A stretch of 64,000 bases of DNA from a phage: NCBI GenBank assembly GCA_014437165.1, contig GCA_014437165.1_4090.3; one strand, 5' to 3'. Within the stretch, counting starts at the first letter, position 1. Every line of letters begins with the position of its first letter. The notes beneath the pieces were generated by a model. That model was not told where the DNA came from. It did no database searches and worked only from the letters and a program-made list of their open reading frames with translations. The translations under genes and the position numbers were made by a program. This document shows positions 3,226 through 15,962 of this stretch, one piece after another.

Positions 3226-3888
3226 ATGATGAAATCAAAATTAGGTTTGTTTTATAAAAACTATTTTTTTAAACAACGTAAATTTATAAAAAAATATTTC
3301 TCTGGCGAGAAGTCTAGTCCTATAATCTTTAAAAGACCAAGTTATAATACTTACTTAGCTGGTGCTAAACAGTCTAAGAAATTTATTACTCTTTTACATA
3401 AAAACAAAATTAAAGCTTCTTATGTTGAAACGAGAAGAAACTCATCAATAACTCCTGGTGATTTTATTGAGTACGGATGTTTCAATATTAAGTACAATGA
3501 TAATACATACTTTATGGATATTGATTGTAATACATCCAATCTTTTTAACATTGTAGTAAATCCATTAAAACAATATAATGTTTATGGTGATTCTATTATC
3601 AAATTAATCAAAAACAAAGATGGCTTTGATTTTGAAATAAATGTTTTAGATGATAATTTTGACGAAGTACCCGTAAACCCTGAAATCTGTGATATTTTAA
3701 ACAGTTTAAAAGGTAGTACCTACAATATATCATCTGATTTAATGTTTCAGTACTCATTAATCCATAAAGATATTGAAAAGTATATTGAATGCTCCAGAAT
3801 TTTGAATTTTCTCTATGATGAATTTAAAAAGAGTTCTAAAATAACTGCATACACTCTGTACAATATTCCTAAAATGGTGAATCTTTGA
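3226..3888 (+). CDS. hypothetical protein, dispersed member of family C (contains DLMFQYSLIHKD)
   Basis: 220-aa ORF, SD AAGGAG upstream; motif matches the E-x-x-F-Q-x-S-L-V-x-D core of the 47.6-63.9 kb family. Confidence 0.55.
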   Translation: MMKSKLGLFYKNYFFKQRKFIKKYFSGEKSSPIIFKRPSYNTYLAGAKQSKKFITLLHKNKIKASYVETRRNSSITPGDFIEYGCFNIKYNDNTYFMDIDCNTSNLFNIVVNPLKQYNVYGDSIIKLIKNKDGFDFEINVLDDNFDEVPVNPEICDILNSLKGSTYNISSDLMFQYSLIHKDIEKYIECSRILNFLYDEFKKSSKITAYTLYNIPKMVNL

Positions 3889-4274
3889 CAAATACAGTAC
3901 TGGCAACTCCACCGTCTGTAATATTTTGTCCAGTACTGTAAATTTGTATACCATCGGTTAAGTAAGTTCTGTATAAAGTTGCTGTAACATATACGTTATT
4001 CATCTCTATTGGTAGTACACATTTGGTATAGGCCGACGCATCGGTTTGTGTACCTATACCTAATTGTCTTGTGTTATAACCAGTTGAGTAAACACCTAAT
4101 AAAGTTATAATATGATTAGAAAAATATTAATAACCCAAACTATTGAGAACCTCTACTGTACAACGTACCATCTGACATAAGGGCAAAAACTGTCTTATCA
4201 GATGAAGCTATTTTTGTAACAGAAGGTTGTATGTTCTTTTTTGATGATGTGATAATTCTTCGAAAGGGTAGCAT
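3869..4274 (-). pseudogene. remnant of an RCC1-like paralog: 44-codon N-terminal piece (MLPFRRII...) then stop, followed out of frame by about 100 codons of C-terminal propeller sequence
   Basis: N-terminal tag MLPF and usual SD/terminator module upstream; downstream frame (open from ~4126) gives ...YSTGYNTRQLGIGTQTDASAYTKCVLP...TDGGVASTVFVKDSPF, matching C-termini of intact paralogs; overlaps convergent gene end by 20 nt. Confidence 0.55.
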
Positions 4275-4319
4275 TGTATCCTCCAAATGTAAATCGTTAT
4301 TATATTTAGGACAAAAAAT

Positions 4320-4338
4320 GCCAGTACAAGGCACTGGC
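4320..4338 (-). terminator. intrinsic terminator hairpin (GCCAGTGCCTTGTACTGGC + T-run on minus strand)
   Basis: stem-loop followed by ATTTTTTG on minus strand, directly after stop of 4346-5515. Confidence 0.55.
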
Positions 4339-4345
4339 ATAAAAT

Positions 4346-13615: not shown

Positions 13616-13638
13616 TGCCAGTATCAAGTACTGGCATT
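13616..13638 (-). terminator. intrinsic terminator, identical to 12376-12398
   Basis: identical hairpin + T-run. Confidence 0.7.
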
Positions 13639-13641
13639 ATG

Positions 13642-14751
13642 TTATTTTGGTAAATCAATTTTAGTAAAGACTGCAACATCCTCGATTGCACCTGGAATGG
13701 CGTAATACGATCCAGTACTATACACATCTCCATTTTTGGTTAATATCGATGTCAAACCATCACTAAAAAGAACATCCCTAATCTCACTAACTTCAACGGG
13801 TAATTGTAAATTGGTAGCACTATATATAGCACCAGTTTGAGAATTGTTTAATCCCAAACCACGGTTCGCCCCAACACCCTTCTGATATGTACTAGTAATT
13901 ACCATTTGTGTAGCAGTATTTAAGGCAGGTGAATTCGTCATAAACAACGGAGAACTATTAGGCAAAGTACTTAAAGGAACTGCACGGAATGTAGTCGTAC
14001 CTGAACTAAGAAAGTTTGGAGTTTGACCACATACGAAATATGATGTACCATTATAGTAATTTAATGCATTACCACCAATGGCTGCATCGATTACACCAGA
14101 ACTACGCAATCCCCAAGTGTTAATTTGTGTTTGGTTCCCCGTACCATGCTGCCCACTACTATTCCATCCAGAACTATATAGCTTATTATCTAATGTAAGA
14201 TACATACTATCATTCGCATTGGTCATTACTTTACGAACGTTCGTAGCACATTGAGTTAATGTGTAAATTGATGATGAACCAATACCCAAAGAACCACGAT
14301 ATCCATTATCTCCTGCACCATAGAGTACTGAATTAGTGCTAAGTACAAATATTAAACCATTTGTACATACAATATTAGCAATTTCACTTACTGGTATAGC
14401 ATTGGTAAACCAATTAGTTCTTTCAACTAATACAGTACTGTAAGAAGTAGTTGTAGAAGATGAGAACCAGTACGTTTGACCTGATGTCCATATCGTATTA
14501 TCATTTTTAATAATAACAAGTGTACGATCACCCACGAAAAAATTAGAAACATCTGCACTTACTAATATCCATGAAGATACCGTGTTGGTATTACCATTTC
14601 CAGATTCACCACCTTGATTTCTACCTATGTAATATAAATCATGTGAATCAGTCAATAAGAATTGGCCTTGGGTAGAAGCACCAACTTTAATTATTTTTTT
14701 AGGACCAGGGACAATATTTCCATACCTAATTATTCTTCCAAAAGGTAACAT
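13642..14751 (-). CDS. RCC1-like beta-propeller paralog with N-terminal MLPFGRIIRYGNI tag
   Basis: start at 14751 (Met8 of track ORF) with GGAGG SD; 8-nt gap to upstream gene (coupled). Confidence 0.8.
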   Translation of the reverse strand: MLPFGRIIRYGNIVPGPKKIIKVGASTQGQFLLTDSHDLYYIGRNQGGESGNGNTNTVSSWILVSADVSNFFVGDRTLVIIKNDNTIWTSGQTYWFSSSTTTSYSTVLVERTNWFTNAIPVSEIANIVCTNGLIFVLSTNSVLYGAGDNGYRGSLGIGSSSIYTLTQCATNVRKVMTNANDSMYLTLDNKLYSSGWNSSGQHGTGNQTQINTWGLRSSGVIDAAIGGNALNYYNGTSYFVCGQTPNFLSSGTTTFRAVPLSTLPNSSPLFMTNSPALNTATQMVITSTYQKGVGANRGLGLNNSQTGAIYSATNLQLPVEVSEIRDVLFSDGLTSILTKNGDVYSTGSYYAIPGAIEDVAVFTKIDLPK

Positions 14752-14759
14752 ATTCCCTC

Positions 14760-15962
14760 CTATTGTTGCCATAACTGCGTTGGCATTAATGTTAGTGTAG
14801 TAATACTATAAGTGCCATCTGGCAATCTACCACCATTTCCATTCCAGCCACCACATGCATATAATTTATAATCTTTAGTAATTATTATGGTTCTGCTCCA
14901 ATCTTTAGATGCCATAAGAACATTGTCATAACCACCACTTATTGCACTAAGATTAAAAATATTCCAAGTTCTAACTAATGTATTAGTTCCATTACCTTCT
15001 TGACCATATGAGTTAGCACCACTACTTCTAACATATGGTGCGTATTGTGCCATAGGTGCACCAATTGATGCATTTCCCATATTACTTGGACAAATAAAAG
15101 TACTGTACTTACTTACATCAACCGTGACCGATGTGTTCCTAATTGGTGTTAGCTGATTTACCGATGTAGTCGTACCATTACCAGCTTGTCCATTACTGTT
15201 AGCCCCGCTATAATATACAGACCCACCAGTAGTAAACCACCAAGTAACATCGTATGTAGTACTAATATGTTCGACATCACTCATCACATATTTGTTCAAA
15301 TATATCATAGAACTAGCACCACAACCACTTTCACCGAAGTTATCCTTACCACAAAACCATGCCTTTTTATTTGATTTAATATAGTGCGTTCCTTGTAATG
15401 AACATGCCATATGTGTAACTTCACCCATATTAGTCATAACTGTTAGTGTGGGTATGGAATTTTGATTACCAGACCCACATTCACCATTGGTATTTCTTCC
15501 ACACGCAATTACTCTACCATCGGTTAATAATATTCTAGTACTTTCACCTATATATACACTCTTGATCATATTAGCCATAACACCAATTTTATTAAATGCA
15601 ACAGTAACATCAGTCCATGTTGTCAAAAAACCATTAACAGGTGTTGCATCTCCATAATCAGAAAATGCACCAACCGATCCAGTGTAGTATATTTTATTAT
15701 CCAAATCAATCATCAATGAACCTTGAACACCAAGCCAAAAGGCTGCACAGTTCCTTGCAAGTACTGTAAATGACGAAACTGCTGCTGAATTCCCAAGACC
15801 AAATTGATAAAAGTTATTACTACCATAACCATATAAAGTATTAGTTGGGTTATGTAGATACATACAGTTTGTATAATGTTGTTGTAAAACATCTGAGAAC
15901 TCTACAGGTTCTGGACCTGGTGCAATATTTGCGTACTTAATCATTCTTCCAAAAGGTAACAT
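14760..15962 (-). CDS. RCC1-like beta-propeller paralog with N-terminal MLPFGRMIKYANI tag; first gene of the minus-strand array
   Basis: 400-aa ORF; SD GGAGGG upstream. Confidence 0.8.
   Translation of the reverse strand: MLPFGRMIKYANIAPGPEPVEFSDVLQQHYTNCMYLHNPTNTLYGYGSNNFYQFGLGNSAAVSSFTVLARNCAAFWLGVQGSLMIDLDNKIYYTGSVGAFSDYGDATPVNGFLTTWTDVTVAFNKIGVMANMIKSVYIGESTRILLTDGRVIACGRNTNGECGSGNQNSIPTLTVMTNMGEVTHMACSLQGTHYIKSNKKAWFCGKDNFGESGCGASSMIYLNKYVMSDVEHISTTYDVTWWFTTGGSVYYSGANSNGQAGNGTTTSVNQLTPIRNTSVTVDVSKYSTFICPSNMGNASIGAPMAQYAPYVRSSGANSYGQEGNGTNTLVRTWNIFNLSAISGGYDNVLMASKDWSRTIIITKDYKLYACGGWNGNGGRLPDGTYSITTLTLMPTQLWQQ

What the first reader, a model, noticed from the sequence alone, without database searches (positions are those of the whole stretch)
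3869..15962. 12-kb minus-strand array of RCC1-like beta-propeller paralogs sharing a 13-aa N-terminal tag
Nine intact ~380-440-aa ORFs plus one frameshifted copy and one deletion remnant all begin M-L-P-F-(G/A/V/S)-R-M-x-(K/N)-Y-G-N-I and continue as Gly/Ser/Thr/Asn-rich proteins with reiterated Y/W-x-x-G-x-N-x-x-x-Q/K-L/F-G blades (for example LYASGSNGFGQLGVGNN, LWGCGFNYYYQLGTGNQ). Outside the tag the paralogs are strongly diverged, as if the propeller surfaces are diversified while the tag is held constant. That pattern fits a shared docking, packaging or export signal on interchangeable receptor-binding, decoration or ejected proteins. I do not know of a described phage system with this architecture.
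Basis: partly seen in the sequence, partly recalled or inferred. Interest (0 to 1): 0.85.

Follow-up and report, generated by a model that had tools for sequence, protein, structure and literature searches.

The report
Shared address tag on virion proteins
A giant E. coli phage carries a row of eleven genes whose very different proteins all start with the same 13 amino acids, which most likely act as an address label that loads interchangeable binding modules onto the virus particle.

Summary
The window comes from an Asteriusvirus-type jumbo coliphage (121Q/PBECO4/G17 group). Eleven minus-strand ORFs begin MLPFxRMxxYGNI: eight intact RCC1-like seven-bladed propellers, one frameshifted copy, one deletion remnant, and one 245-aa protein that is not a propeller. 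That protein has a TNF-like plus glycine-rich fold like distal tail-fibre adhesins.

The RCC1 array is already published. It is annotated "DNA condensation protein", and mass spectrometry found eight members in phAPEC6 virions. I found no description of the tag itself.

The tag is 80% conserved against 22% for the bodies, and it is disordered in AlphaFold models. In related genera (CBB, GAP32, Serratia BF, Erwinia phages) it also heads Kelch propellers, ConA-like lectin domains and glycine-rich proteins. Several of these were found in virions. There its codons vary synonymously. Homologous bodies in Vequintavirinae carry a different shared N-terminus (MLEML).

Best reading: a cargo-independent virion-incorporation (docking) peptide on interchangeable ligand-binding modules, probably displayed externally. 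The main rival is a T4-like capsid-targeting signal for inner-body or ejected proteins. The "chromosome condensation" label looks like name transfer. This is a new variant of a known kind.

The parts
14760..15962 (-). Tagged RCC1-like propeller gene 1 (400 aa; tag MLPFGRMIKYANI at 15924-15962)
   Evidence: AF2 pLDDT 89.7 with residues 1-17 below 50; Foldseek UVR8/HERC2/RCC1
13642..14751 (-). Tagged RCC1-like propeller gene 2 (369 aa; MLPFGRIIRYGNI); abuts gene 1 with no intergenic cassette
12402..13571 (-). Tagged RCC1-like propeller gene 3 (389 aa; MLPFGRMMNYGNI)
11182..12330 (-). Tagged RCC1-like propeller gene 4 (382 aa; MLPFVRMMNYGNI)
9923..11110 (-). Tagged RCC1-like propeller gene 5 (395 aa; MLPFARMMNYGNI)
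9113..9850 (-). Tagged non-propeller cargo: 245-aa TNF-like + glycine-rich protein (MLPFGRMIKYGNE)
7867..9042 (-). Tagged RCC1-like propeller gene 6 (391 aa; MLPFARMVKYGNI); first of a four-gene unit
6716..7858 (-). Tagged RCC1-like propeller gene 7 (380 aa; MLPFGRMVKYGNI)
5516..6705 (-). Frameshifted tagged copy: 269-aa ORF 6705..5896 (MLPFSRMVKYGNI), then the remaining blades in another frame down to 5516
   Evidence: 98.9% identical to phAPEC6 gp007 (30.06 kDa), which mass spectrometry found in virions
4346..5515 (-). Tagged RCC1-like propeller gene 8 (389 aa; MLPFGRMLKYGNI)
3869..4274 (-). Deletion remnant: 44-aa ORF with decayed tag (MLPFRRIITSSKKN) plus about 80 C-terminal propeller residues in another frame
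13572..13641 (-). Intergenic cassette: hairpin terminator (13638-13614), T-run, TAAATATAGTATAA-like -10 element, AAGGAGG. The same cassette lies at 12331-12401, 11111-11181, 9851-9922, 9043-9112 and, degraded, at 4275-4345
   Evidence: 5 matches to the 27-nt core against 0 expected; 6 conserved hairpins

Best explanation
The first 13 residues (M-L-P-F-x-R-M-x-x-Y-G-N-I, followed by a short Pro-rich linker) form a cargo-independent virion-incorporation peptide, in effect an address or docking tag. The tag is flexible and is not part of the fold behind it. I propose that it binds a common acceptor site on the assembling particle, so any protein carrying it is loaded into the virion.

The cargoes are compact ligand-binding scaffolds. 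In this window they are RCC1-like propellers and one TNF-like plus polyglycine adhesin domain. In sister genera they also include Kelch propellers and ConA/LamG lectin domains. Together they would give the phage a changeable set of accessory adhesins or decorations, probably on the outside. 121Q and phAPEC6 carry unassigned fibres on each capsid hexamer and 'hairs' on the tail.

The array grows, shrinks and shuffles by recombination between the repeated roughly 110-nt terminator-promoter-SD-tag cassettes.

Shown: the tag's conservation, its disorder in models, its presence on four unrelated folds, the presence of tagged proteins in purified virions, and tag identity following phage lineage rather than cargo family.

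Inferred: that the tag is the incorporation determinant (about 0.75), that the cargo is displayed externally (about 0.55), and that the cargo binds host surface structures.
For: Tag 80.1% against body 21.6% identity. AF2 gives residues 1-17 (propeller) and 1-8 (Gly-rich protein) pLDDT below 50 while the bodies score above 90.

The same tag heads other folds. These are Kelch (CBB_550/552/554), Laminin_G_3 (CBB_548/551, pEa49 242-aa, and the family of BF gp372), Gly-rich (CBB_144, BF gp377/379) and an RCC1+Kelch fusion.

Virion mass spectrometry: phAPEC6 gp003, 005, 006, 007, 009, 010, 549 and 551, all tagged. Also GAP32 gp001, CBB_144 with the peptide of residues 14-24 detected, and CBB_536, 537, 548, 549, 551, 552 and 553, annotated as structural. 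A 'PE-PGRS' Gly-rich protein was found in Erwinia phage virions. The truncated 269-aa propeller is still virion-associated.

Peptide-level selection: in CBB and pEa49 the tag codons vary synonymously (CCG/CCA/CCT/CCC, TTT/TTC, TAT/TAC, GGA/GGT/GGG) while the amino acids are kept. The dead remnant has lost the YGN half of the tag.

The tag follows the phage, not the cargo. Vequintavirinae A5-4 has three tandem RCC1-like genes, 38% identical to the window's first copy, which all start MLEM[LM]NL. The Gly-rich homologue PVP-SE1 gp19 starts MFEMML.

The tag occurs only in Rak2-like jumbo phages, at 5-15 per Asteriusvirus genome, and all copies lie in the array in Sharanji.

External display: the Gly-rich cargo matches Pam3 fibre gp24 and Bxb1 tail brush and spike proteins, and in Pam3 that domain pair recognises the receptor. 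Homologues are fused to fn3 or Ig-like domains.

A validated precedent exists. A 29-aa N-terminal conserved peptide is necessary for loading RBP2 onto KP32 and also loaded a foreign enzyme domain (the K1F endosialidase) fused to it.
Against: No experiment links the tag to incorporation, and no acceptor is identified. The N-terminal peptide itself has not been seen by mass spectrometry. The CBB search database started the ORF 5 residues upstream, so its absence there is uninformative.

Peptide counts per paralog in phAPEC6 are low: 1-5 unique peptides. 121Q and phAPEC6 have an inner body of unknown composition, so an internal location remains possible.

Within Asteriusvirus the first seven codons are identical even at synonymous sites. 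Codons differ at 14% of identical-residue sites in the tag against 55% in the bodies. DNA-level homogenisation therefore contributes to the apparent conservation there.

Propellers are normally monomers, whereas known fibre adhesins are trimers. Gene-wide dN/dS of one orthologue set is 0.22-0.76, which gives no clear diversifying signal.
Confidence: 0.58

Rival explanations
1. The tag is a capsid-targeting sequence like that of the T4 internal proteins. It would direct the cargoes into the prohead core, so that they form part of the inner body or are ejected into the host with the DNA as diversified effectors or anti-defence binders.
For: Rak2-like phages share T4-type head genes, including homologues of gp20, gp21 and gp23. 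121Q and phAPEC6 show a 91 x 18 nm inner body of unknown composition, and the phAPEC6 authors nominated the RCC1-like proteins for it. A short N-terminal signal shared by unrelated cargoes encoded in a variable locus is what T4 internal proteins show (established knowledge, recalled rather than tested). RCC1 and Kelch scaffolds are also used as protein-binding effectors elsewhere.
Against: There is no conserved Glu-containing gp21-type cleavage motif at or after the tag. The first Glu lies anywhere from residue 13 to residue 49. The peptide immediately after the tag is present in mature CBB virions. The proteins are near-neutral (pI 5.3-8.6) with only 5-7% Lys+Arg, so they are not DNA-binding in character. 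Peptide counts are far below what a roughly 15-20 MDa inner body would need (the mass estimate is my inference). One cargo has a fold known in phages only from distal fibre or brush proteins. Lectin-type ConA domains make little sense inside a capsid.
Confidence: 0.2
2. The tag is recognised by an assembly factor or chaperone, or drives oligomerisation, rather than docking on the virion. Virion association would then depend on the bodies.
For: Fibre adhesins of the Gly-rich type need dedicated chaperones, for example Pam3 gp25. The tag is disordered on its own.
Against: Four unrelated folds would each need their own virion contact. A truncated propeller lacking about 30% of its blades is still in virions. 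Tag identity tracks the phage lineage across cargo families.
Confidence: 0.1
3. The shared N-terminus is only a by-product of tandem duplication and gene conversion of a 5' regulatory cassette (terminator, promoter, SD, first codons) and has no function as a peptide.
For: Seven of eleven copies share a near-identical upstream cassette. Codons 1-7 are invariant at synonymous sites, including non-preferred CCT and GGA.
Against: Four copies lack the cassette yet keep the tag. Codons 10-15 vary synonymously within the window. In CBB, pEa49 and BF the upstream DNA differs and the tag codons vary while the residues are kept. The tag sits on non-homologous bodies, and on CBB_144 it occurs at a distant locus between the nrdD and nrdG genes. 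The tag has decayed in the pseudogene remnant.
Confidence: 0.05
4. As the database names say, these are 'regulators of chromosome condensation' or 'DNA condensation proteins' that organise the packaged genome.
For: Sequence and fold similarity to RCC1. PHROG and GenBank labels say so. The phAPEC6 authors speculated along these lines.
Against: The label is a fold-family name. The closest structural matches are UVR8, HERC2 and RPGR, which are not chromatin factors. The RCC1-like family has more than 155,000 representative clusters of every kind. There is no basic character. The same tag is carried by lectin, Kelch and adhesin folds.
Confidence: 0.03

Closest known systems
RCC1-like 'DNA condensation' proteins of phAPEC6, 121Q, PBECO4 and GAP32 (Wagemans et al. 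2020, PMC7247149; Buttimer et al. 2017, PMC5259590)
   Same: These are the same gene family and the same array. The papers report eleven copies in phAPEC6, eight of them found in virions by mass spectrometry, with multiple copies noted in 121Q and PBECO4 and one in GAP32.
   Different: The papers treat them as RCC1 or DNA-condensation candidates. None of the papers I read or searched mentions the shared N-terminal tag, its presence on Kelch, LamG or Gly-rich proteins, or the non-propeller member of the array.
N-terminal 'conserved peptide' of the secondary receptor-binding protein in KP32/K11/KP34-type Klebsiella podophages (PMC13352976)
   Same: Both are short N-terminal peptides, conserved while the rest of the protein varies. 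In KP32 the peptide is necessary for loading the protein onto the virion, and fusing it to a foreign enzyme domain (the K1F endosialidase) loaded that domain too.
   Different: The KP32 peptide is 29 aa, sits on one trimeric depolymerase per phage, and docks on a T4gp10-like branching domain of RBP1. Here the tag is 13 aa and sits on 10-15 cargoes per genome, of four non-fibrous folds, in a jumbo myophage. No partner is known and there is no sequence similarity.
T4 capsid-targeting sequence on internal proteins and the variable internal-protein locus (established knowledge, recalled, not tested here)
   Same: Both are roughly 10-aa N-terminal signals shared by otherwise unrelated proteins that end up in the virion, encoded in a locus that varies between related phages.
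   Different: The T4 signal ends in a prohead-protease site and is removed, and its cargo is internal and ejected. Here there is no conserved Glu or cleavage motif, the residues just after the tag are present in mature virions, and the cargo folds are adhesin- or lectin-like.
TNF-like + glycine-rich fibre-tip adhesins (Pam3 gp24, S16 gp38; Bxb1 gp33 brush)
   Different: Pam3 gp24 docks through an N-terminal alpha-helical trimerisation domain. Here that domain is replaced by the 13-aa tag. There is no sequence-level match to any solved structure.
phiKZ-type inner-body paralog families
   Same: Both involve tandem, strongly diverged paralogs that are packaged in a jumbo-phage virion, and 121Q and phAPEC6 do have an inner body.
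   Different: phiKZ inner-body proteins are abundant and are processed by the head protease. No similarity to them was found by the phAPEC6 authors, and the proteins here are low-abundance.

Membership tests
RCC1-like seven-bladed beta-propeller (Pfam RCC1 / RCC1_2 / WD40_RLD) | Sequence match to RCC1 repeat models above the curated cut-off | tested here: met
   7 of 9 propeller ORFs pass RCC1 or RCC1_2 gathering scores. The 5515 and 6705 copies are sub-threshold but hit WD40_RLD at E 5e-15 and 6e-13. The 9850 ORF has no hit.
RCC1-like seven-bladed beta-propeller (Pfam RCC1 / RCC1_2 / WD40_RLD) | Seven-bladed propeller fold | tested here: met
   AF2 pLDDT 89.7, pTM 0.89 for the 15962 copy. Foldseek: UVR8 E 4e-24, TM 0.74/0.80; HERC2 RLD, RPGR and RCC1 also match. 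Only one paralog was modelled.
RCC1-like seven-bladed beta-propeller (Pfam RCC1 / RCC1_2 / WD40_RLD) | Ran-GEF or chromatin-binding activity (the 'regulator of chromosome condensation' function) | not testable with these tools
   There is no Ran in bacteria. The proteins have neutral pI and low charge. The function label is a family name only.
N-terminal docking peptide of branched receptor-binding-protein systems (KP32 type) | Short N-terminal peptide conserved among proteins whose remainder is unrelated or diverged | tested here: met
N-terminal docking peptide of branched receptor-binding-protein systems (KP32 type) | Peptide necessary and sufficient for virion incorporation | not testable with these tools
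   The evidence is only correlative: tagged proteins, including a truncated one, are in virions.
N-terminal docking peptide of branched receptor-binding-protein systems (KP32 type) | Partner is a T4gp10-like branching domain on a primary RBP | not tested
   No acceptor was searched for. The structural module is outside the window.
N-terminal docking peptide of branched receptor-binding-protein systems (KP32 type) | Cargo is a trimeric tailspike or depolymerase | tested here: not met
   The cargoes are propellers, ConA-like domains and a TNF-like/Gly-rich domain.
T4-type capsid-targeting sequence | Shared N-terminal signal on unrelated virion cargo | tested here: met
T4-type capsid-targeting sequence | Signal ends in a prohead-protease cleavage motif (hydrophobic-x-Glu) and is removed | tested here: not met
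   There is no conserved Glu in or after the tag. Residues 14-24 of CBB_144 are present in virions, preceded by a tryptic Lys. Removal of residues 1-13 is not excluded.
T4-type capsid-targeting sequence | Cargo located inside the head and ejected | not testable with these tools
   An inner body exists in 121Q and phAPEC6, but its composition is unknown.
TNF-like + glycine-rich fibre adhesin (Pam3 gp24 type), for the 245-aa member only | TNF-like sandwich followed by a polyglycine lattice domain | tested here: met
TNF-like + glycine-rich fibre adhesin (Pam3 gp24 type), for the 245-aa member only | N-terminal alpha-helical trimerisation and docking domain | tested here: not met
   The model has no N-terminal helices. 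Residues 1-8 are disordered and the first strand starts at residue 20.

The most novel reading that the evidence does not exclude
Large myophages may use short, lineage-specific N-terminal 'address codes' that are independent of the fold behind them. The codes seen here are MLPFxRxxxYGN in Rak2-like jumbo phages and M[LIF]E[LM][LM] in Vequintavirinae, phiTE-like and other 80-250 kb phages. Under this reading any binding module can be plugged onto a common acceptor on the virion, and modules move between phage lineages by swapping the tag. That would be a natural plug-and-display system with 10-15 cargoes per particle. It could explain the unassigned capsid fibres and tail 'hairs' of 121Q, phAPEC6 and CBB.
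Probability: 0.3. Interest if true: 0.8.

Novelty: new variant of a known kind. Interest (0 to 1): 0.6.

Why it matters
If the 13-residue tag is the loading signal, three things follow.

(1) It corrects a widespread annotation. In these phages, 'regulator of chromosome condensation', 'DNA condensation protein', 'HERC1', 'RPGR' and 'PE-PGRS' would all be accessory virion binding modules.

(2) It identifies the gene set most likely to underlie the unexplained capsid fibres and tail hairs of hairy jumbo phages.

(3) It offers a very short, natural handle for displaying foreign proteins on jumbo phage particles or for re-targeting them. This is analogous to the 29-aa conserved peptide now used to engineer Klebsiella podophages, but shorter and apparently tolerant of many folds.

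The finding also makes concrete a testable question: how does a 350-kb phage use tandem gene arrays to diversify its surface?

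Tried and rejected
Tag-only database search. A 42-aa N-terminal profile found only 31-59 aa tag-bearing ORF remnants, so no catalogue of further cargo types was obtained.

Exhaustive profile search with the propeller alignment. It was swamped by giant multi-RCC1 proteins, with 155,609 hits, and said nothing about tags.

N-terminal peptide in published mass spectrometry. The CBB peptide tables lack MLPF peptides, but the search ORF began 5 residues upstream, so this is uninformative. 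The phAPEC6 supplements are not held.

Promoter class. The sigma-70 scan shows no enrichment (59 found against 62.6 expected). The cassette's TATTAAATATAGTATAAT resembles neither the ATAAATA late motif nor the RpoD-like motifs described for CBB closely enough to assign it. Expression timing is left open.

Hypervariability. The neighbouring 12 kb is just as mosaic among relatives, so I do not claim that the array is exceptionally variable.

Positive selection. Gene-wide dN/dS is 0.22-0.30 for diverged pairs and 0.56-0.76 for two close pairs. This is relaxed constraint at most, and site models were not run.

Literature. Papers on Sharanji, fEgEco12, jumbo-phage comparative genomics, the BASEL collection and phiTE say nothing on the tag.

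I considered and rejected a signal-peptide or export role, because there is no hydrophobic core. I also rejected the tag as the closing strand of the propeller, because it is disordered in models and also sits on non-propeller folds.

Full report
WHAT THE WINDOW IS

The 12-kb region matches Asteriusvirus jumbo coliphages. It is 99.5% identical to vB_EcoM_G17 and Sharanji over 62% of its length, and 85-98% identical in pieces to 121Q, PBECO4, phAPEC6 and others. No record covers 80% of it. The rest of the window holds only small ORFs and no tRNA genes. That region is equally mosaic among relatives.

THE OBSERVATION

A six-frame scan finds 11 copies of the N-terminal motif, all at ORF starts on the minus strand between 4140 and 15962. 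Each is preceded by AAGGAGG. The longer ORFs in the mechanical list are read-through of that cassette.

- Eight ORFs are intact RCC1-like genes of 369-400 aa.
- One (6705..5896) is a 269-aa frameshift allele with the remaining blades in another frame.
- One (4274..) is a deletion remnant whose tag has decayed.
- One (9850..9113, 245 aa) is not a propeller at all.

Seven of the nine propeller ORFs pass curated Pfam RCC1 or RCC1_2 cut-offs. Pairwise identity is 80.1% in the tag and 21.6% in the bodies. Eight of the 13 invariant alignment columns lie in residues 1-13.

STRUCTURE

An AlphaFold2 model of the first copy, built on 31 homologues, has pLDDT 89.7 and pTM 0.89. Residues 1-17 score below 50. 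Foldseek places the body with UVR8, the HERC2 RCC1-like domains, RPGR and RCC1, at E down to 4e-24 and TM 0.74-0.80.

ARRAY ANATOMY

Seven copies are preceded by a conserved cassette: a hairpin terminator (GCCAGTACTnnGTACTGGC plus a T-run), then GTATTAAATATAGTATAATGAATAAAGGAGG, then ATG. Four copies abut the previous gene with only an SD. The transcription units are therefore [1+2], [3], [4], [5], [Gly-rich], [6+7+frameshift+8] and [remnant].

Sharanji has two cassettes that the window lacks, and all 13 of its tags lie in the array. This fits gain and loss by recombination between the repeated 5' cassettes.

IS THE TAG SELECTED AS A PEPTIDE?

Within Asteriusvirus, codons 1-7 are identical even at synonymous sites, including non-preferred CCT and GGA. 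At residues that are identical between copies, the codon differs in 14% of tag sites against 55% of body sites. DNA-level homogenisation therefore contributes locally.

Five observations argue for selection on the peptide itself.
- Codons 10-15 vary synonymously within the window.
- The four cassette-less copies keep the tag.
- The pseudogene remnant has lost the YGN half.
- In CBB, pEa49 and BF the upstream DNA is unrelated, and the tag codons vary freely (CCG/CCA/CCT/CCC, TTT/TTC, TTA/CTT, TAT/TAC, GGA/GGT/GGG) while M-L-P-F and Y-G/A-N are kept.
- CBB_144 carries the tag at a distant locus between nrdD and nrdG.

THE TAG IS NOT AN RCC1 FEATURE

A 23-aa tag query hits only Rak2-like jumbo phages of 320-386 kb. 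Asteriusvirus genomes have 5-15 copies. Other hits are the Salmonella Munch/7t3 group, Klebsiella fENko-Kae01, Mimasvirus, Eneladusvirus, Yersinia fHe-Yen9 and Xanthomonas XbC2.

In CBB, nine clustered genes start MLPF..[RI]....Y[GA]N. CBB_550, 552 and 554 are Kelch propellers. CBB_548 and 551 are Laminin_G_3 (ConA-like). CBB_536, 537, 549 and 553 belong to the same PHROG, 'virion structural protein'.

Serratia BF and Erwinia pEa49 have ten and eight tagged genes. These are RCC1-like, Gly-rich and LamG-like, with two tag subtypes in one genome. GAP32 gp001 and gp002 are tagged.

All 30 phage-type homologues in the 5.8-billion-protein search start M[LI]PF, including a 678-aa RCC1+Kelch fusion. 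Cellular RCC1 proteins do not.

VIRION ASSOCIATION (PUBLISHED DATA)

The phAPEC6 virion proteome contains gp003, 005, 006, 007, 009, 010, 549 and 551. I verified that each begins with the tag. I also verified that gp007 (30.06 kDa) is the same 269-aa frameshift allele as in the window, at 98.9% identity. A propeller lacking about a third of its blades is thus still loaded.

GAP32 gp001 is a virion protein. CBB_144 was identified with five peptides, including residues 14-24 immediately after the tag. Seven of the nine CBB cluster genes are annotated as structural proteins. A 'PE-PGRS' (Gly-rich) protein was found in Erwinia phage virions.

The phAPEC6 GenBank record does not annotate the Gly-rich ORF, so its absence from that proteome means nothing.

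THE TAG FOLLOWS THE PHAGE, NOT THE CARGO

Vequintavirinae phage A5-4 has three tandem RCC1-like genes, 38% identical to the window's first copy from residue 24 onwards. All three begin MLEMLNLG or MLEMMNLG. The Gly-rich homologue PVP-SE1 gp19 begins MFEMML. Dozens of Gly-rich homologues in 80-250 kb phage contigs begin M[LI]E[LMAT][LM], including tandem pairs in a phiTE-like contig and an 88-kb contig.

So there are two cargo families and two lineage-specific N-termini. That is the pattern expected of an attachment element co-evolving with a phage-encoded acceptor.

MECHANISM

I conclude that the tag is a cargo-independent virion-incorporation peptide (about 0.75). I also conclude that the cargoes are interchangeable ligand-binding modules, most likely displayed on the outside (about 0.55).

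Support for external display:
- the adhesin-type fold of the Gly-rich member;
- lectin and propeller scaffolds among the cargoes;
- fn3 and Big_2 fusions in homologues;
- neutral pI and low charge;
- unassigned fibres on every capsid hexamer and 'hairs' on the tail of 121Q, phAPEC6 and CBB.

The CBB authors noted that virion proteins without GAP32 counterparts cluster in CBB_534-553. That is the tagged cluster.

The experimentally validated analogue is the 29-aa conserved peptide that docks RBP2 on the branching domain of RBP1 in KP32. It is necessary for incorporation and, fused to a foreign endosialidase domain, loaded that domain onto the virion.

MAIN RIVAL

The main rival is a T4-like capsid-targeting signal for inner-body or ejected proteins (about 0.2). 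Its support is the T4-type head genes and the inner body seen in 121Q and phAPEC6. Against it stand the lack of any conserved Glu or cleavage motif, the presence of post-tag residues in virions, the low peptide counts, the non-basic composition and the adhesin or lectin folds.

The 'chromosome condensation' reading is name transfer from a fold family that has more than 155,000 representative clusters.

NOVELTY

The RCC1 array and its virion association are published. No paper in the searchable library contains the tag strings. The papers I read on these phages do not mention a shared N-terminus.

I rate this a new variant of a known kind. It is a short N-terminal virion-loading peptide, distinguished by its brevity, by the number of cargoes per genome (10-15), by the four unrelated non-fibrous folds it serves, and by the apparent existence of a second, different code in other large myophages.

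LIMITS

Nothing here shows that the tag is required for loading, where the proteins sit, or what they bind. Only one propeller and the Gly-rich protein were modelled. Gene-wide dN/dS (0.22-0.76) does not demonstrate diversifying selection. The promoter class of the cassette is undetermined.

Noticed in passing
window 404-3184 (+): There is a tandem array of about eight small (104-141 aa) multi-pass membrane-protein paralogs directly beside the tagged array. CBB has a similar run of 'putative membrane proteins' (CBB_539-547) beside its MLPF cluster.
   Followed up: partly
window 16012-16040 (+): A perfect sigma-70 consensus promoter (TTGACA, 17 nt, TATAAT; 12 of 12) faces away from the array towards the small-ORF region.
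   Followed up: no
L002 3935-7433; L003 3998-4840; L011 7879-9372; L013 10001-11465: A second recurrent N-terminal motif, M[LIF]E[LMAT][LM], appears on RCC1-like and Gly-rich proteins. It is seen in Vequintavirinae (A5-4, PVP-SE1 gp19), in a phiTE-like contig and in other 80-250 kb phage contigs, often in tandem pairs.
   Followed up: partly
L010 319-9854 (Serratia phage BF); L005 758-8169 (Erwinia pEa49): Eneladusviruses carry two tag subtypes in one genome. MLPFPIIS[NHS]T is on most genes, and MLPF..[IM]..[EK]YGN is on a few. This may mean two acceptor sites.
   Followed up: no
window 5516-6705 (-): The frameshift near ...YPLYGVG|HKIHGQLGNG is shared with Sharanji and phAPEC6, and the 269-aa product is in phAPEC6 virions. 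It is either an old, tolerated truncation or a site of programmed frameshifting; I did not examine which.
   Followed up: partly
L007 7325-8056 (phAPEC6 MK817115): The Gly-rich tagged ORF is not annotated in the phAPEC6 record. 'gp004' at 7716-8018 is a different frame. Several tagged ORFs in that record also lack CDS features.
   Followed up: yes
window 3869-15962 compared with 20000-32000: Pieces of the array are 99.5% identical to G17 and Sharanji, whereas the neighbouring 12 kb is only about 91% identical to the same phages. This points to recent exchange of array segments between phages.
   Followed up: partly
GenBank and PHROG annotations of homologues: The same protein family is variously named regulator of chromosome condensation, DNA condensation protein, S-layer protein, Ig domain protein, E3 ligase HERC1, RPGR GTPase regulator and PE-PGRS protein. 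PHROG files it under nucleotide metabolism. All of these look like name transfer.
   Followed up: yes
P0179-P0185 (metagenomic ORFs of 31-59 aa): Short ORFs consisting of little more than the tag and the first blade strand recur in Asteriusvirus-like contigs. Tag-bearing remnants like the one at 4274 are therefore common.
   Followed up: no
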